The translations under genes were made by a program, and so were the position numbers. A stretch of 49,503 bases of DNA from a virus. Lineage: Duplodnaviria > Heunggongvirae > Uroviricota > Caudoviricetes. This document shows positions 8,530 through 32,410 of the stretch, in pieces (position 1 is the first letter of the stretch; each line of letters opens with the position of its first letter). The stretch lies in IMG/VR virus record IMGVR_UViG_3300006100_000010; one strand, written 5' to 3'. The notes beneath the pieces were generated by a model. The model searched no databases and was not told the origin of the DNA. It saw nothing but the letters and a program-made list of their open reading frames with translations.

Positions 8530-9612
8530 TTGTCTTATATGAAAGGACTTTATGCATACTTTGGTCTGCTTGACCTGCACACAATTGACTCTCCTGGACA
8601 CTCATTCTATCAATTGGGTCTAATGGACTCAATCTGCCAAGAATTTGGGATCAATGGACTCGATTTCTTTTCCTATTATCCGGAGAATGAAATAAAGTCT
8701 ACTGAATACCATAACTATCCGGATACTCAGCTTGGCAAGCTATTTACTGAGTATCTAGCGCAAATTGTTGAAAAAAAAGAAATGGATCTTGAAGCCGTGG
8801 TGAAAGCCATAGCAAAAAAGGAATATAAAAAGCTGTTTCTTAAGGCTAGATTTAGAAATCTTTCTACTCTCACTAAAAAATGGAAAGATGCTAGCTATTT
8901 TGAAGAGATTATCGATACTGCAATTCATTCAGGGTACGCAAAAGAAGACATTATTATACTGGACACCGATCTTTCTCTTTCTGACTCTTTTGTCAAAGAG
9001 TATGAATCTCGAGTGACCATTAAAATACCGTCTATTGATTTTCCAGGAATATCGATGTCTTTCCTAGACAAGTGCATAGAAATTCGTAAGGCTGAAAAAA
9101 GCAAAGAGTTTGGTCCAGTTTTCTATGGAAATATTGATACTACGAACTACAAGAGTGGAAATGCAAAGAGTGAAATGCTCGGCGACGTCCTTACTTACTT
9201 TAAAAATAACGCTAGATTTGTCGAAGAACCGTTTACAATAATAAGTAAAGGTTCAGATATTAAATCCATCGATGAATCAGTCCACACAATCGACCGCAGA
9301 AATCGTCACTTGATCTGGGACGAGCTTGAAAGAAAGTCAATCATGCTCAATGTCACCAAGGCAAAATACGCAGAGAGAAAATTCATTCCGGCCAGGATAT
9401 ACGAAGCACTGATCTTTGGCATGATCCCAGTATCTTATGACTTTGAATTTCTAAGCAACACATTCTCATTCAGCACAATGGCAGATCTCAATGAGATTAT
9501 TCGTTACCTAAAGGAGTGTTCGCAAGAAGACTTGACCAAAGCCTATCTGCATTTCGTCAATCAATACAAGGAATATGAGGCAAGCCGAATTTTAAGTATC
9601 ACAACTAAATAA
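8530..9612 (+). CDS. Putative GT-B glycosyltransferase
   Basis: C-terminal FIPARIYEALIFGMIP resembles the 'RxxEAxxxG' nucleotide-sugar-binding motif; FYGN motif upstream. Confidence 0.5.
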   Translation: MSYMKGLYAYFGLLDLHTIDSPGHSFYQLGLMDSICQEFGINGLDFFSYYPENEIKSTEYHNYPDTQLGKLFTEYLAQIVEKKEMDLEAVVKAIAKKEYKKLFLKARFRNLSTLTKKWKDASYFEEIIDTAIHSGYAKEDIIILDTDLSLSDSFVKEYESRVTIKIPSIDFPGISMSFLDKCIEIRKAEKSKEFGPVFYGNIDTTNYKSGNAKSEMLGDVLTYFKNNARFVEEPFTIISKGSDIKSIDESVHTIDRRNRHLIWDELERKSIMLNVTKAKYAERKFIPARIYEALIFGMIPVSYDFEFLSNTFSFSTMADLNEIIRYLKECSQEDLTKAYLHFVNQYKEYEASRILSITTK

Positions 9613-24492: not shown

Positions 24493-24657
24493 AGTCAGTA
24501 GTAACGTGAGAGTTACTTCGAAATCCATTATCAGGACGGTGTCGGTGGTTCGAATCCATCTCTCCCCACTAAGAAGAAATTCTTAATTTTTAACTTGGGG
24601 AGATAGCTCAGCTGGTAGAGCACGTAAAAGAAAAATCTCTCGCAACTTTCTCTGACT
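24493..24657 (+). ncRNA. Y RNA-like RNA 1 (YrlA-type order: T arm, closed acceptor stem, D arm)
   Basis: AGTCAG-TAGTAAC-GTGAGAGT-TACTTC pairs with CTCTCGC-AACTTTCT-CTGACT; inside are T arm 24544-24560, TCTCCCCA/TGGGGAGA and D arm GCTC..GAGC; near the Ro60 gene. Confidence 0.8.
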
Positions 24658-24696
24658 AATTTTTTAAAAGCTAGGAGAATTTAGTATTATCTACAC

Positions 24697-25167: not shown

Positions 25168-26793
25168 ATGGCAAAATTTAGAAACCAAAATCTTCGCAAC
25201 ACGCTCGCTGGTATGCAGCCTGATGCGAAGCTGGTTGAAGCAGCAACCCTGCCTAAGCCAGACACCAAGAACCGTCAAGGTCACGCAGCTTATTCTATGG
25301 ATAAGTGGCTTCACCTCTTGACAATGCTAAACACTCTCAAACTCGAGAACCAGTTTTATCGTTCTGAAAACGAAACGATGAAAGAGCTCAAGGGTCTAGT
25401 GGATGTTTGTGCAAAGGAAGACGCTTATCTAGTAGCACAGTGCATCGTGTATTCACGTTGCGTCGGTGAAGGTATGCGTTCAGTAAACCACCTAGCCGCA
25501 AGCTACCTTGCACCACACTGTGCAGGAAAAGACTGGGCAAAGCGTTTCTACTCACTGTGGAACAAGAAGACTCAATCAGGCGGTACTATCTTCAGACCGG
25601 ATGACATGTCAGAAATTGTTGCTTGCTTCTCAGCAATGAACAAGACTGCTGTGACAAACGCAATGAAGAAAGGATTCAAGGATGCTCTTGAAAAGCTAGA
25701 TGCATACTCTCTATTGAAATACAAGGGAGATCTGATCGACGTTGCTAACCTAGTTCACCCTAACCCTAGCCTGTCAAAGGCAACGGCAAAGGTTGATAGC
25801 GAAAAGGTCTCAGTGCTTTCAGCGATCATGAAGGGCTTGCCAGTGTCAGCCGACACTTGGGAAGTTGCTCAGTCTGATGCAGGTCAAGAAGTTGCAAAGG
25901 CCGTAAAGGCAGGTAAGCTTACTGAAACTCAAGCGGAAAAAGTCCTAAAGGAAGCTAAGGCTGAAAACTGGAACGCTCTCTTGACAGAAGGAAAGCTGGG
26001 TATCCTTGCAGCACTTCGCAACATCAGAAACATCATAACAAATGATGCAAAGGCTGCGGCAATCACTGCACTATGCGATCTACTTTCTGATGGCGTAGCG
26101 ATCCGTAAGGGAAAGATCATGCCGTACCAAATCGATATGGCTCACGAAGTCCTAACCTCTGAGTTCAGCAACATGGAATCTCGTAAGATCGCTCAAGCTC
26201 TTTTGAAGGGATACGAAGCGGCAGTGCCGAACCTAGCAGAAATGCTTCCTGGCAGAAACCTGATCATGGTTGACTTTTCTGGATCTATGGGTACACAAGT
26301 AGTCGATCCAAACAAGAAGACACGATACAAGAGCTCATGCTTGGATAAGGCAGCGCTGATTGCAGCAACGATAGCAAAAGCAACAAACGCGGATATTATT
26401 CGCTTTGGATCTGATGCAGAGTACGCTAAATACAATGCAAATGCAGACGTCTTCACTATTGCTAACGCAATGAAGAGAGACATGGGAGGAACAAGCCTTG
26501 AAACTGCATGGAATGTAGCTCAAAGATCTGGCACAAAGTACGATAGAGTATTCATACTCTCAGATAACGAATGTAACCGTGGCTCAAGCTACAAGGCATA
26601 CGAAAGATATGTCAAGGCATGCGGAAGCCCATACGTTTACTCAGTGGATCTAGCCGCATACGGAACAGCTCAACTCGCAGGAGATAAGGTTCGTTTCTAC
26701 TACGGCTACGGATACTCAATGTTCGATGACATCGCGAAGAGCGAGTTCAACCCGAACTACCACCTCGAAAAGGTGAAGAAGATTGTGATCTAA
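25168..26793 (+). CDS. rsr: Ro60/Rsr RNA-binding protein (TROVE + vWA)
   Basis: TROVE-type N-terminus (GHAAY, NQFYRS, GMRS, AMKKG, AALRNIRNI) and vWA MIDAS motifs VDFSGSM, GGT, ILSDNE; flanked by Y-like RNAs. Confidence 0.9.
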   Translation: MAKFRNQNLRNTLAGMQPDAKLVEAATLPKPDTKNRQGHAAYSMDKWLHLLTMLNTLKLENQFYRSENETMKELKGLVDVCAKEDAYLVAQCIVYSRCVGEGMRSVNHLAASYLAPHCAGKDWAKRFYSLWNKKTQSGGTIFRPDDMSEIVACFSAMNKTAVTNAMKKGFKDALEKLDAYSLLKYKGDLIDVANLVHPNPSLSKATAKVDSEKVSVLSAIMKGLPVSADTWEVAQSDAGQEVAKAVKAGKLTETQAEKVLKEAKAENWNALLTEGKLGILAALRNIRNIITNDAKAAAITALCDLLSDGVAIRKGKIMPYQIDMAHEVLTSEFSNMESRKIAQALLKGYEAAVPNLAEMLPGRNLIMVDFSGSMGTQVVDPNKKTRYKSSCLDKAALIAATIAKATNADIIRFGSDAEYAKYNANADVFTIANAMKRDMGGTSLETAWNVAQRSGTKYDRVFILSDNECNRGSSYKAYERYVKACGSPYVYSVDLAAYGTAQLAGDKVRFYYGYGYSMFDDIAKSEFNPNYHLEKVKKIVI

Positions 26794-26877: not shown

Positions 26878-27004
26878 ATCAGGTAGCAACGTAAGAGTTA
26901 CTTCGTAGTGCAATTGGTAGCACAATTTTTTTGGGAAAAATGGGTTGCGGGTTCAATCCCCGTCGAGCGGCGAAAGCCGAATACTCTTACACTTTCCTCC
27001 TGAT
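26878..27004 (+). ncRNA. Y RNA-like RNA 2 (non-permuted D, anticodon TGG, T arms inside the stem)
   Basis: ATCAGG-TAGCAAC-GTAAGAGT-TACTTC / ACTCTTAC-ACTTTCCT-CCTGAT; anticodon-like loop TTTGGGA at 26930-26936. Confidence 0.75.
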
Positions 27005-28367: not shown

Positions 28368-28439
28368 GCACCTATAGCTGAGCGGTAAAGCTGCGCCCTC
28401 TTAAGGCGATGATCCCAGCTTCAAATCCTGGTGGGTGCA
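28368..28439 (+). tRNA. tRNA-Lys(CTT), atypical T stem
   Basis: GCACCTA/TGGGTGC; loop CTCTTAA; C in place of G53 gives a C-C mismatch. Confidence 0.7.
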
Positions 28440-28462
28440 CACCATTAAAAACAAAGAGAGTC

Positions 28463-28969
28463 ATGATGAAGTTAAGCGATTTTAGAGTATTGGTTCTTAA
28501 TGCAGATTATCAGCCTGTCAACATGACTTCTTTTAAGAAGGGCTGTAAGTTGGTCTACAAAGGAAAGGCAGAAGTTCTTACATTAGACGAAGAAAACAAC
28601 CTGACCTCTGCAGTGCTTACTGAGGTTCGACCAAAGGTAATTAGACTCTTGCAGTACATTTACCTTCCTCATCGGAAGATGAGCCTCACTAAGCAAAACA
28701 TCTACAAGCGCGACGGATATCGTTGTGGCTACTGTGGATCCAAAGATGAGTTGACAATCGACCACATCTTGCCTAAGTCCAGAGGAGGTAAAAATAGCTG
28801 GGAAAACCTAGTTACTTGTTGCTCAAAGTGCAACAGCAAAAAGGACAACCAGACCCCAGCTGAAGCTCGAATGAAATTGAGAGTTGAGCCACACGCGCCG
28901 ACTTTCAAGAGCTTGATTGGGTTAAGTAAAGACTCAAGTCTCACTGACGCTCTAGTAGCTCAGTGGTAA
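28463..28969 (+). CDS. HNH endonuclease
   Basis: VLVLNADYQP N-terminus, CGYCG, LTIDHILPKSRGG, NLVTCCSKCN; the ORF-track start lies inside tRNA-Lys, so ATG 28463 is preferred. Confidence 0.9.
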   Translation: MMKLSDFRVLVLNADYQPVNMTSFKKGCKLVYKGKAEVLTLDEENNLTSAVLTEVRPKVIRLLQYIYLPHRKMSLTKQNIYKRDGYRCGYCGSKDELTIDHILPKSRGGKNSWENLVTCCSKCNSKKDNQTPAEARMKLRVEPHAPTFKSLIGLSKDSSLTDALVAQW

Positions 28970-29769: not shown

Positions 29770-29851
29770 GGGTATACGCCGAAGTTGGAGAGTCGGGGCG
29801 GTCTGTAAAACCGTTGCATTAGCTGAACAGGTTCGAATCCTGTTATACTCA
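29770..29851 (+). tRNA. tRNA-Tyr(GTA)
   Basis: Loop CTGTAAA; long variable arm. Confidence 0.9.
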
Positions 29852-29856
29852 CACTT

Positions 29857-30777: not shown

Positions 30778-30780
30778 CTA

Positions 30781-30891
30781 AGGACTTAAATAAGCTGAGG
30801 TGGTAGAGAGTGCCATAGGTAAGTTGACGACGGTCGACTGAGAGAAGGGGTACTACACGGTGACGGACCTCTGTAAATGCTCAGCTGTCCT
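30781..30891 (+). ncRNA. Unknown structured RNA B
   Basis: AGGAC/GTCCT and AGCTGAG/CTCAGCT closing stems; inner GTGGTA/TGCCAT, AGTTGAC/GTCGACT and GGGGT/ACCTC helices. Confidence 0.5.
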
Positions 30892-30895
30892 ACTT

Positions 30896-31062: not shown

Positions 31063-31180
31063 CAAGATCTAATAGTGTAAACGCGTAGCGGCCGACACAT
31101 GATGGTTCGTCCTTTTAGACGATAGAGTTAAACTCAGCCACATATAGGAACGATAAGGCCTCCTTAGATCAAAATAACAT

Positions 31181-31303
31181 GGGGAAGAATGCAAAACAAA
31201 CACTTTGTCGCACATTCTTCGGAAACGATAGCAACAGATAGAGTTACTTCGCAATCAATCTGTAAAATTGACGTTTGGTATTGAGAGATACCCTTCCCCA
31301 CCA
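31181..31303 (+). ncRNA. Y RNA-like RNA 6: tRNA-Tyr-like body with native CCA end and the conserved stem in place of the D arm
   Basis: GGGGAAG/CTTCCCC-A-CCA; TCAAT-CTGTAAA-ATTGA; GGTAT/ATACC; ACTTTGTC-GCACATTCT-TCG-GAAA-CGA-TAGCAAC-AGATAGAGT-TACTTC. Confidence 0.7.
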
Positions 31304-31304
31304 T

Positions 31305-31375
31305 GGTCTTGTGGCCGAGTGATTAGGCGCAGCTCTGCAAAAGCTGATACACTGGTTTGATCCCAGTCGAGACCT
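31305..31375 (+). tRNA. tRNA-Cys(GCA)
   Basis: GGTCTTG/CGAGACC, U73; loop CTGCAAA. Confidence 0.9.
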
Positions 31376-31718: not shown

Positions 31719-31786
31719 CTTGAGGGAGGTGGGATGACCACCCAACGATTCAGCTCGTCACTGAGTCGGCTTCCCCAAAATAACTA

Positions 31787-31861
31787 GGACAAAAAGGTGT
31801 GGGGAGGATCGCACGCTGGGCTCGCAACCCAGAAGACTGGTTCGTGTCTCCAGTGAGTCCA
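31787..31861 (+). pseudogene. tRNA-like element with initiator-type anticodon stem and CGC triplet
   Basis: CTGGG-CTCGCAA-CCCAG, GTGT/GCAC D-like stem, ACTGG/CCAGT T-like stem with 9-nt loop, only 4-bp acceptor GGAC/GTCC. Confidence 0.45.
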
Positions 31862-31864
31862 TAT

Positions 31865-31954: not shown

Positions 31955-32410
31955 ATGTCACTAAAAGCAACAATCTATGCGGACTTTATGACTGCATTTA
32001 AAGCAAAAGAAGAAAAGGCAAAGTCTGCTCTGAGCATGCTGAAGGCAAAGATCACTGAAGCCGAAAAGGCAAATAAGAATCAGGAACTTACTGATGCTGA
32101 AGTGCTAAAGGTGATACTTGCTTCGGTGAAACAGAGAAAGCAATCGATCGGCGAATTTGAGAAGGGCGGCCGACCTGATCTTGTTGAAAAGGAGGCGGCA
32201 GAGCTCAAGGTTCTTGAAGCATACCTTCCAAAACAAATGTCTCGCGAAGAGATTGAGTCTGAATTGCGTACGATCCTACTTGGTTTTGGCGAAAAAGAAC
32301 CGCATAACAAAAAGGTGGGACAGAGCATGGGAATGTTCAATAAGAAGTTTCCAGGAATGGCTGACCCGAAGGTAGTACAAGAGGTCATAAATTCTCTGGT
32401 TGCTGCATAA
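31955..32410 (+). CDS. yqeY: GatB/YqeY domain protein
   Basis: MSLKATI..D...A.KAK, KQRKQSI..FEKGGRPDLVEKEAAELKVLEAYLPKQMS. Confidence 0.92.
   Translation: MSLKATIYADFMTAFKAKEEKAKSALSMLKAKITEAEKANKNQELTDAEVLKVILASVKQRKQSIGEFEKGGRPDLVEKEAAELKVLEAYLPKQMSREEIESELRTILLGFGEKEPHNKKVGQSMGMFNKKFPGMADPKVVQEVINSLVAA

What the first reader, a model, noticed from the sequence alone, without database searches (positions are those of the whole stretch)
31181..31303. 'Inside-out' Y RNA: tRNA-Tyr-like RNA with native CCA end whose D arm is replaced by the Ro-type stem
Seen: 7-bp acceptor GGGGAAG/CTTCCCC, A73 and encoded CCA; anticodon arm TCAAT-CTGTAAA-ATTGA (GTA); 5-nt variable loop; T stem GGTAT/ATACC with odd loop TGAGAG. 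At the D-arm position the two halves of the shared module occur in reversed order (3' half first) and are joined by TCG-GAAA-CGA, so the ends of a Y RNA are closed by a GNRA loop. A competing hairpin (GAAGAATG 31184-31191 with CATTCTTC 31213-31220) would break both folds and could act as a switch. Inference: a potentially aminoacylatable or CCA-bearing Ro ligand, i.e. a tRNA-Tyr mimic tethered to Ro60. It lacks the long variable arm of bacterial tRNA-Tyr.
Basis: partly seen in the sequence, partly recalled or inferred. Interest (0 to 1): 0.86.

Follow-up and report, generated by a model that had tools for sequence, protein, structure and literature searches.

The report
tRNA-framed phage Y RNA with CCA
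A large uncultured phage encodes, inside its tRNA gene array, a small RNA with the ends of a tRNA whose D loop carries the folded "handle" shared by the RNAs around the phage's Ro60-like gene. It belongs to a conserved, apparently undescribed family that is most likely a tRNA-processed partner RNA of that protein, not a tyrosine tRNA.

Summary
Window 31181-31303 (+) has a 7-bp acceptor stem, discriminator A, encoded CCA, a 5-bp/7-nt anticodon-like arm (GTA) and a T-like hairpin. Where a D arm would sit, it has the Rsr-linked handle in reversed strand order, capped by GAAA.

It is not a one-off. A covariance model found 69 copies (47 distinct) in phage and metagenome contigs, nearly all inside tRNA arrays. 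All six helices covary: 91% of cells paired against 67% in shuffles and at most 55% when slid.

The "tRNA-Tyr" reading does not hold across the family. Loops read GUA, CAU, UGA, UGG, UUC or GAA, or are 8-9 nt long. Only 24 of 47 copies encode CCA.

Most relatives keep a 2-3 bp D stem, a G18-G19-like GG and a canonical T loop. The handle is therefore an insertion in the D loop, and the window's copy is a derived form without an elbow.

The competing hairpin is strong only in the window's own subclade.

Best reading: a Y RNA with native tRNA ends, cut out like its tRNA neighbours and bound by phage Rsr. Binding, expression and charging are untested.

Neither Rfam nor the papers I searched describe it. 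This scan had already noted related handle RNAs, including a tRNA-shaped one, on other DNA.

The parts
31181..31187 (+). Acceptor stem, 5' strand (GGGGAAG). T at position -1 (31180), as in array tRNAs.
   Evidence: Pairs with 31293-31299. The helix is 98.8% paired with 6 of 7 pairs covarying in 47 sequences. Position -1 is T in 38/47 copies.
31188..31192 (+). AA (like tRNA positions 8-9), then TGC, the 5' strand of a 3-bp D-stem remnant.
   Evidence: TGC pairs with GCA 31251-31253. This helix is 89% paired and shows compensatory changes, though many cells are gaps.
31193..31201 (+). A-rich strand (AAAACAAAC) on the tRNA side of the handle.
   Evidence: The same A-rich strand precedes the 3'-type handle strand in all six handle RNAs of the window and in family members.
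31202..31209 (+). Inner helix of the handle, 3'-type strand (ACTTTGTC).
   Evidence: 8 of 8 bases pair with 31237-31244. All 7 modelled pairs covary.
31210..31218 (+). Internal-loop strand GCACATTCT. It ends in the family-invariant TTCT.
   Evidence: TTCT is invariant in alignments A1, A2 and A5. It is a 9-nt strand in almost all members.
31219..31228 (+). Outer helix TCG/CGA closed by a GAAA tetraloop. In the other handle RNAs this is where the free ends lie.
   Evidence: The helix is 99.3% paired, with CG, UA, AU and GC variants. RNAalifold on a plain MAFFT alignment recovers it independently. The cap is GNRA in 34 of 45 members.
31229..31236 (+). Internal-loop strand TAGCAACA (family motif TAGYAA).
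   Evidence: Invariant T, A, G, A, A. The same motif occurs in the five other handle RNAs of the window.
31237..31244 (+). Inner helix of the handle, 5'-type strand (GATAGAGT).
   Evidence: Pairs with 31202-31209.
31245..31254 (+). TACTTCG motif, overlapping GCA (3' strand of the D-stem remnant), then A (like tRNA position 26).
   Evidence: TWCWTCG is near-invariant in the family. In window RNA1 the same TTCGAA stretch aligns to the 5' CGAA motif of the Rfam YrlA model.
31255..31271 (+). Anticodon-like arm TCAAT-CTGTAAA-ATTGA (GTA).
   Evidence: The stem covaries and is 85% paired. A GUAA loop is kept in about 17 distinct relatives with different stems. Other clades have CAU, UGA, UGG, UUC or GAA loops, or loops of 8-9 nt.
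31272..31292 (+). 5-nt variable region CGTTT, then the T-like hairpin GGTAT-TGAGAG-ATACC with a non-canonical 6-nt loop.
   Evidence: A canonical TTCRA T loop is present in 32 of 47 relatives. The window's subclade has lost it, together with the D-loop GG.
31293..31303 (+). Acceptor stem 3' strand CTTCCCC, discriminator A, encoded CCA. tRNA-Cys starts 1 nt later, at 31305.
   Evidence: The discriminator is A in 42/47 and CCA is encoded in 24/47. The gap to the next tRNA is 0-15 nt in many relatives.
25168..26793 (+). Phage Rsr/Ro60-like gene (541 aa), the presumed protein partner, 4.4 kb upstream on the same strand.
   Evidence: Pfam TROVE scores 27.3 bits against a cut-off of 23. vWA_Ro60 scores 24.3, below its cut-off. 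PHROG 850 'RNA-binding protein', E 1.6e-34. No PDB match by sequence.
24493..24660 (+). RNA1: the same handle in the canonical YrlA layout (handle 5' strand, small stem-loop, T arm, TCTCCCC-A, loop, GGGGAGA, D arm, handle 3' strand).
   Evidence: Sequence. Rfam YrlA match 24515-24649, full model length, 32.3 bits, E 1.3e-5, below the gathering score of 69. Handle strands.

Best explanation
It is a Y-RNA-type non-coding RNA built on a tRNA frame.

Shown:
- It folds into a four-way junction made of a 7-bp acceptor stem with free ends, a long arm, an anticodon-like arm and a T-like arm.
- The long arm is the conserved handle: an outer helix with a GNRA cap, a 9x8-nt internal loop (TTCT opposite TAGYAA), an inner helix, and a TACTTCG/A-rich loop.
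- It lies in a co-oriented tRNA array with tRNA-like flanks.
- The handle is the same one carried, in normal strand order, by five other RNAs around the phage's Rsr (Ro60) gene.

Inferred:
- The RNA is transcribed with the array.
- RNase P cuts at G31181. The 3' end arises when the next tRNA is released 1 nt after CCA, or by trimming and CCA addition in relatives that end in CAA or CTA.
- The handle docks on phage Rsr.
- Moving the ends from the handle to the acceptor stem lets the tRNA-processing machinery mature this Y RNA.
For: Structure:
- 69 model matches, 47 distinct.
- 91.0% of cells paired against 67.3% in shuffles, 288 double-change cells against 87.5, and 0 of 500 shuffles as high. 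Slid partners give at most 55%.
- Acceptor and outer helix are recovered de novo.
- The proposed fold costs -27.4 to -29.2 kcal/mol against an MFE of -29.9.

tRNA-type processing context:
- Members lie on the strand of tRNA arrays, often 0-15 nt from neighbouring tRNAs.
- Position -1 is T in 38/47, compared with 159/217 for neighbouring tRNAs.
- The 3' tails CCA, CAA and CTA resemble those of the window's own tRNAs.

Rsr link:
- The handle's 5' half occurs six times on the + strand of the window, all between 24.5 and 31.2 kb around Rsr. It also clusters around Rsr in related loci.
- The partner strand shows compensatory changes in all six RNAs.
- RNA1 is a sub-threshold YrlA match.
- 15 stretches found by the RNA pattern alone hold an Rsr homologue, mostly on the RNA's strand and often 0.3-0.7 kb downstream of it. 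One further record does as well.
- 10 distinct Rsr loci fetched by protein hold a family member.

Precedent: M. smegmatis YrlA is cut by RNase P in its 7-bp acceptor-like stem and gains CCA while bound to Rsr (Chen 2014, PMC4201824).
Against: - There is no expression, end-mapping or binding data.
- The candidate does not match Rfam YrlA at E up to 10.
- Its CGAA-type motif reads TTCGCAA.
- In the window it lies 4.4 kb from Rsr.
- Several 8-12 kb stretches that hold a family member show no Rsr. These are fragments, so this is weak evidence.
- The window's Rsr has no sequence match in the PDB.
- The window's copy lacks the elbow (no GG, 6-nt T loop). Recognition by enzymes that read the elbow is therefore doubtful for this copy.
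Confidence: 0.6

Rival explanations
1. It is an aminoacylatable tRNA-Tyr mimic. Tyrosyl-tRNA synthetase would charge the CCA end, so that Rsr is tethered to EF-Tu or the ribosome, or the RNA decodes.
For: G1-C72, A73, encoded CCA, and a regular loop CUGUAAA with U33, G34, U35 and A37. A GUAA loop is kept in about 17 distinct relatives whose stems differ. Chen 2014 raised possible charging of the cleaved M. smegmatis YrlA.
Against: - Other family members have CAU, UGA, UGG, UUC or GAA loops, or loops of 8-9 nt. Several GUA members have A33 or C33.
- There is no long variable arm, no D loop and a 6-nt T loop in the window's copy.
- The window already has a normal tRNA-Tyr at 29770-29852.
- Only 24 of 47 copies encode CCA.
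Confidence: 0.1
2. The RNA is real, but the handle binds a protein other than Rsr, and the nearness to Rsr only reflects a shared tRNA/RNA-repair island.
For: Some long stretches with the RNA show no Rsr. Earlier notes of this scan describe tRNA-mimic RNAs next to rsr that track a different gene, DUF7873. That is a lead only.
Against: - The handle clusters tightly on both sides of Rsr in many loci whose Rsr is 36-80% identical to the window's.
- In one clade the RNA sits 0.3-0.7 kb upstream of Rsr on the same strand.
- Pfam scans of 20 window ORFs found no DUF7873.
- RNA1, which carries the same handle, matches YrlA.
Confidence: 0.12
3. It is a conformational switch. The 5' acceptor strand (GAAGAATG) alternately pairs with the handle's CATTCTTC, which would break both the acceptor stem and the handle.
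For: A perfect 8-bp match in the window. The best fold that includes it costs -28.0 kcal/mol, against -29.2 for the cloverleaf-type fold. Own-partner duplexes average -7.65 kcal/mol against -6.97 for swapped partners, with 0.15% of 2000 swaps as low.
Against: - The test ignores relatedness among the sequences.
- Duplexes are weak (-2.5 to -7 kcal/mol) in most clades outside the window's own.
- TTCT is also invariant in handle RNAs that have no acceptor strand to pair with.
- L046 carries an A-C mismatch at the one position that appears to covary.
Confidence: 0.1
4. It is a dead chimera, or simply the junction of two tandem Y RNAs (the 3' half of one followed by the 5' half of the next).
For: Handle RNAs do occur in tandem near Rsr. 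The element is absent at the matching place in L001, where Leu(gag) is followed directly by Cys.
Against: - 47 distinct copies keep the whole unit, from acceptor 5' strand to CCA or CAA, with compensatory changes in all helices.
- A 3-bp stem with a 4-nt, mostly GNRA, cap joins the two halves in 34 of 45 members.
- The unit sits between tRNAs with tRNA-like spacing.
Confidence: 0.03

Closest known systems
YrlA (Rfam RF02553), the tRNA-like Y RNA of bacterial and phage Rsr/Ro60; especially M. smegmatis YrlA (Chen et al. 2014, PMC4201824; Wang et al. 2018, bioRxiv 10.1101/312249)
   Same: An RNA encoded near Rsr on the same strand that joins a protein-docking stem to a tRNA-like body. M. smegmatis YrlA has a 7-bp acceptor-like stem, is cut by RNase P and receives CCA. 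The window's RNA1 carries the same handle and is a sub-threshold YrlA match.
   Different: - YrlA is a circularly permuted tRNA with a closed acceptor stem-loop, and its Rsr stem extends the anticodon stem.
- Here the gene itself is in native tRNA order, the acceptor is open and ends in CCA, an anticodon-like arm is present, and the capped docking module sits in the D loop.
- The candidate gets no YrlA score at E up to 10.
- The handle's hallmarks (TAGYAA/TTCT loop, TACTTCG) are not those of the YrlA model.
Yrl1 and Yrl2 of Thermus phage phiLo with phage Ro60 (NAR 2025, PMC12135203)
   Same: Phage-encoded Ro60 that binds phage-encoded Y-like RNAs found next to its gene. A CGAA motif lies in an internal loop of a 5'-3' stem.
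   Different: Those RNAs have the classical stem-bulge-stem layout with their ends in the stem. They have no acceptor/CCA end and are not part of a tRNA array.
tmRNA and viral tRNA-like structures (for example TYMV TLS)
   Same: tRNA mimics with a free CCA end and an acceptor/T-arm minihelix that tRNA enzymes process (introduction of Wang 2018).
   Different: tmRNA has a G3-U70 alanine identity pair and an mRNA module. Viral TLSs are 3' UTR elements. Neither carries a Ro-type handle. Rfam tmRNA and TLS models do not match here.
Handle RNAs next to Ro60-like genes noted earlier in this scan on other phage DNA (AI notes e1-5340916, e1-4043237, e1-5340902)
   Same: A closing stem followed by an AGCAA-type motif, shared by several small RNAs in different layouts next to a Ro60-like gene. 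One note describes a CCA-ending tRNA that carries the handle.
   Different: In that note the handle lies inside the anticodon stem. Here it lies in the D loop. I did not see those sequences, so whether the handles are the same was not tested.

Membership tests
YrlA (Rfam RF02553) | Score at or above the Rfam gathering threshold (69 bits) | tested here: not met
   No YrlA match over 31181-31303 at E up to 10. The window's RNA1 reaches 32.3 bits.
YrlA (Rfam RF02553) | tRNA-like domain in permuted order (T arm, closed acceptor stem-loop, D arm), with the Rsr stem in place of the anticodon stem | tested here: not met
   Native order, with an open acceptor and the docking module in the D-loop position.
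YrlA (Rfam RF02553) | Encoded within about 4 kb of Rsr on the same strand (criterion of Chen 2014) | tested here: inconclusive
   Same strand, but 4,388 nt after the Rsr stop in the window. Many relatives lie 0.3-0.7 kb upstream of Rsr.
YrlA (Rfam RF02553) | GNCGAAN0-1G motif | tested here: inconclusive
   The window has TTCGCAA. Relatives have TTCGAAGG or TTCGGTAA. RNA1's TTCGAA aligns to the model's CGAA.
Y RNA in the functional sense (Ro60/Rsr ligand) | Bound by Ro60/Rsr | not testable with these tools
   Supported only by the shared handle and by co-location.
tRNA (Rfam RF00005 / ARAGORN) | Detected by tRNA models | tested here: not met
   Not called by ARAGORN or by the Rfam tRNA model, even at E up to 10.
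tRNA (Rfam RF00005 / ARAGORN) | 7-bp acceptor stem, discriminator base, 3' CCA | tested here: met
   GGGGAAG/CTTCCCC, then A, then CCA. The stem covaries.
tRNA (Rfam RF00005 / ARAGORN) | D arm with G18-G19, and a 7-nt T loop that together form the elbow | tested here: not met
   The window has no GG and a 6-nt TGAGAG loop. 26 of 47 relatives have both features.
tRNA (Rfam RF00005 / ARAGORN) | 5-bp anticodon stem and 7-nt loop with U33 and purine 37 | tested here: met
   TCAAT-CTGTAAA-ATTGA.
bacterial tRNA-Tyr | Long variable arm, with a GUA anticodon kept in orthologues | tested here: not met
   The variable region is 5 nt. The anticodon-like loop differs between clades.
bacterial tRNA-Tyr | Charged by TyrRS | not testable with these tools
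Ro60/Rsr (the neighbouring protein) | TROVE domain plus vWA domain | tested here: met
   TROVE 27.3 bits against a cut-off of 23. vWA_Ro60 24.3 bits, below its cut-off of 27.7. PHROG 850, E 1.6e-34.

The most novel reading that the evidence does not exclude
These are tRNA-framed Y RNAs whose anticodon-like loops have diversified. GUA, CAU, UGA, UGG, UUC and GAA all occur, and copies within one phage differ from each other. The idea is that each imitates a particular host or phage tRNA. They might act as decoys or sensors for anticodon nucleases of anti-phage defence. Alternatively they might be charged RNAs that bring Rsr to synthetases, EF-Tu or the ribosome. Either way, Ro60 would be tied directly to the tRNA conflict between phage and host.
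Probability: 0.12. Interest if true: 0.85.

Novelty: new variant of a known kind. Interest (0 to 1): 0.62.

Why it matters
Y RNAs are known as Ro60 partners whose tRNA-like part is a closed, permuted mimic without a CCA end. Here a whole phage-borne family has the opposite layout. It has real tRNA ends and sits among tRNA genes, so the cell's tRNA-processing enzymes can probably make it.

This gives a concrete, testable case for three open questions:
- how Y RNAs arose from tRNAs;
- which tRNA-binding factor the tRNA-like domain recruits;
- whether a Ro60 ligand can carry a free, possibly chargeable, CCA end.

It also supplies 47 natural variants of the docking handle for binding and structural work. 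Finally, it warns annotators that spacers in phage tRNA arrays can hold structured RNA genes.

Tried and rejected
- ARAGORN and Rfam (gathering scores, and E up to 10) gave nothing on the candidate.
- blastn of the region against 50,697 phage records matched only the flanking tRNAs.
- The pattern GCAAAACAA..TAGYAA..TWCWTCG added only chance hits.
- RNAalifold on a plain MAFFT alignment recovered only the acceptor and outer helices, because the AU-rich helices are misaligned.
- A fixed-offset, anchor-based pairing count was blurred by bulges and mis-anchoring: 64% paired on the diagonal against 31-50% off it. I therefore relied on the model-fitted alignment together with its slide and shuffle controls.
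- I considered reading the handle as the anticodon arm and the small arm as a variable arm, which would be the YrlA layout re-opened at the acceptor. I rejected it for three reasons: relatives keep TA-GC...GGTAAA-GC-A around the handle; L035 and the 2699-2845 copy in L070 have a separate long variable hairpin; and the 9002-9135 copy in L088 has a separate D-like hairpin.
- The Rsr protein has no PDB match by sequence.
- No whole genome is held for the window.
- The scan of species genomes gave one true hit, on a 1.5-kb MAG contig.
- Pfam scans of large ORFs in RNA-bearing stretches without Rsr were uninformative.

Full report
**Setting.** The window looks like part of a large uncultured phage with about 40% G+C. 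It has 32 ARAGORN-called tRNA genes, all on the + strand between 23.5 and 33.2 kb. A 541-aa ORF at 25168-26793 passes Pfam's TROVE threshold and has a sub-threshold Ro60-type vWA match. It also hits PHROG 850, "RNA-binding protein", at E 1.6e-34. It has no PDB match by sequence. I call it Rsr.

**Checking the observation.** These are the acceptor GGGGAAG/CTTCCCC, A and CCA, TCAAT-CTGTAAA-ATTGA, the 5-nt CGTTT, GGTAT-TGAGAG-ATACC and TCG-GAAA-CGA. ARAGORN and Rfam do not call the region, even at E up to 10.

The handle's 5' half is TAGYAA, then a 7-8-nt helix strand, then TACTTCG. It occurs six times on the + strand, all between 24.5 and 31.2 kb. A script that looks for the partner strand (a complementary helix strand followed by ..TTCT and the outer-helix complement) finds it downstream for five of them, each with compensatory outer and inner helices. 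Only for the copy at 31229 does it lie upstream, at 31202. The reversed order of the two halves, joined by a 3-bp stem and GAAA, is therefore real.

**Relatives.** A protein-guided search with Rsr fetched 37 phage loci. blastn and a regular expression found full-length homologues of the candidate in several of them. DNA patterns specific to the reversed arrangement then brought in 21 viral and 56 metagenome stretches.

I built a covariance model from six sequences and my proposed structure. It matched 69 places, 47 of them distinct, with E from 6e-31 to 9e-6. A scan of one genome per prokaryote species gave a single true hit, on a 1.5-kb MAG contig. The family therefore appears to be phage-borne.

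**Structure.** On the 47 distinct sequences, 91.0% of pair cells are standard pairs, against 67.3% in shuffles. There are 288 cells with changes on both sides, against 87.5 expected. No shuffle out of 500 reaches the observed values, and sliding the partners gives at most 55% paired.

All six helices covary:
- acceptor, 98.8% paired
- outer handle helix, 99.3%
- short D-stem remnant, 89%
- inner handle helix, 86%
- anticodon-like stem, 85%
- T stem, 81%

That alignment was fitted to the model and so leans towards it. RNAalifold on a plain MAFFT alignment independently recovers the acceptor and the outer helix, both with compensatory changes.

For the window's sequence, the proposed fold costs -27.4 to -29.2 kcal/mol, close to the MFE of -29.9.

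**What the family shows about the anatomy.** The handle is very regular. From 5' to 3' it has:
- an A-rich strand;
- a 7-8-nt helix strand;
- a 9-nt loop strand ending in TTCT;
- a 3-bp helix with a 4-nt cap, GNRA in 34 of 45 members;
- an 8-nt strand starting TAGYAA;
- the complementary helix strand;
- TACTTCG.

Many relatives read TA-GC-[handle]-TACTTCG-AAGGTAAA-GC-A. That is U8/A9, a 2-bp D stem, a G18-G19-U-A-like GGTA, the D-stem 3' strand and position 26. Two variants (L035 and the 2699-2845 copy in L070) also carry a separate long variable hairpin. One (the 9002-9135 copy in L088) has a separate D-like hairpin.

The handle is therefore best described as an insertion in the 5' part of the D loop. 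It is not a stand-in for the anticodon arm, which is the arrangement in YrlA.

A GG just after TACTTCG goes with a canonical TTCRA T loop. 26 sequences have both, 14 have neither and 7 are mixed. The window's subclade has lost both. Its copy is a derived form without a tRNA elbow.

**tRNA identity.**
- The GUA loop is kept in about 17 distinct relatives whose stems differ.
- Other members have well-formed loops reading CAU, UGA, UGG, UUC or GAA, or loops of 8-9 nt containing UGAAA. Several GUA members have A33 or C33.
- Copies within one contig differ. L097 has three tandem copies with different acceptors and loops.
- The discriminator is A in 42 of 47. CCA is encoded in 24 of 47, and the rest end in CAA, CTA or similar, like most tRNAs of the window.
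- The window also has an ordinary tRNA-Tyr with a long variable arm at 29770-29852.

"tRNA-Tyr mimic" is thus a trait of one subclade, not what defines the family.

**Processing context.** Members lie on the strand of the tRNA arrays, often 0-15 nt from their neighbours. In L113 and L115 the element sits between tRNA-Leu(gag) and tRNA-Cys, as in the window. In L001 those two tRNAs are adjacent and the element is missing. Position -1 is T in 38 of 47, against 159 of 217 for neighbouring tRNAs. In the window, tRNA-Cys starts 1 nt after CCA. All this fits maturation by RNase P and the 3' tRNA-processing enzymes, but that remains an inference.

**Link to Rsr.**
- The handle clusters on both sides of Rsr in the window and in related loci.
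- RNA1 (24493-24660) carries the handle in the canonical YrlA layout. It matches Rfam YrlA over the full model at 32.3 bits, E 1.3e-5, below the gathering score of 69. Its TTCGAA aligns to the model's CGAA motif.
- Fifteen stretches found through the RNA pattern alone hold an Rsr homologue, and in one clade the RNA lies 0.3-0.7 kb upstream of Rsr on the same strand. One further record has Rsr outside the held stretch.
- Some 8-12 kb fragments show none.
- Pfam scans of 20 window ORFs found no DUF7873, the alternative partner that earlier notes of this scan raised for other tRNA-mimic RNAs.

**The switch.** The 8-bp alternative hairpin exists, and the best fold containing it (-28.0 kcal/mol) is nearly as good as the cloverleaf-type fold. 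Across the family, own-partner duplexes are slightly stronger than swapped ones: -7.65 against -6.97 kcal/mol, with 0.15% of swaps as low. That test ignores relatedness, and most clades outside the window's have weak duplexes. TTCT is equally invariant in handle RNAs that have no acceptor strand to pair with. I treat the switch as possible in this subclade but not as a conserved feature.

**Comparison with what is known.** YrlA RNAs are circularly permuted tRNA mimics with a closed acceptor stem-loop, and their Rsr-binding stem extends the anticodon stem. They lack a free CCA. The exception is M. smegmatis YrlA, which RNase P cuts in its 7-bp acceptor-like stem and which then gains CCA. Thermus phage phiLo Ro60 binds two classical stem-bulge-stem Yrl RNAs.

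The present family has what M. smegmatis YrlA gains by cleavage (free acceptor ends and CCA) encoded in the gene. It also has the docking module capped and placed in the D loop. It fails the tests for membership of YrlA and of tRNA. I found no description of it in Rfam 15 or in four full-text literature searches.

Earlier AI notes of this scan describe related handle RNAs next to Ro60-like genes on other phage DNA. One describes a CCA-ending tRNA with the handle in its anticodon stem. These are leads, not evidence, and I could not compare the sequences.

**Verdict.** This is a real, conserved, structured RNA gene. It is a new variant of the Y-RNA/tRNA-mimic kind. Most likely it is a tRNA-processed ligand of phage Rsr (confidence about 0.6). 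The tyrosine-charging and switch ideas remain minority readings.

Noticed in passing
window 31064-31180: A 117-nt spacer between tRNA-Leu(gag) and the candidate, with a closing stem GATCTAA/TTAGATC. It has 78%-identical homologues in L013:18576-18676 and L014:8261-8361. It is missing in L113 and L115, where the same two genes lie 5-13 nt apart. It may be another small structured RNA (fold z-score only -1.9).
   Followed up: partly
window 24493-24660: RNA1 has the handle in the canonical YrlA layout, with a 7-bp acceptor-like stem GGGGAGA/TCTCCCC closed by a 28-nt loop. It matches Rfam YrlA at 32.3 bits, below the gathering score, so standard annotation would miss it.
   Followed up: partly
L003:11835-11906, L005:11950-12022, L001:11916-11990, window 26903-26966: The tRNA-like domains nested in the handle RNA just downstream of Rsr carry different 'anticodons' at matching places. 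ARAGORN calls them tRNA-Stop (tta), SeC (tca) and Cys (gca); the window has a TGG-like loop. Annotators could mistake these for suppressor tRNAs.
   Followed up: no
L097:89-523: Three tandem copies of the family, 27-36 nt apart, with different acceptor stems (GGGGAAG, GCCGAGA, GCCCAAG) and different anticodon-like loops (GUA, UUGAAAA, UGG). L070 has three copies. L088, L069 and L080 have two each.
   Followed up: partly
window 28409-28969: An HNH endonuclease ORF (186 aa; Pfam HNH_5, E 7e-17) lies inside the tRNA array and overlaps the 3' end of tRNA-Lys(ctt).
   Followed up: no
window 30779-30895 and 31720-31864: Two further gaps in the array, of about 117 and 145 nt, hold no called gene. The first has a closing stem GCTGAG/CTCAGC. 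blastn found no homologue among the fetched loci.
   Followed up: partly
L020:7871-8029: Another layout: a tRNA-like 3' half, then the handle's 5' half (CAGTAGTAACGTGAAAGTTACTTCG), then a T arm and CCCTCCCAACCA, which pairs with a GGGAGGG about 150 nt upstream. It is a weak model hit (16.7 bits) and I did not analyse it.
   Followed up: no
window 31955-32410: A YqeY-like protein gene (Pfam PF09424, E 2e-36) is embedded in the tRNA array.
   Followed up: no
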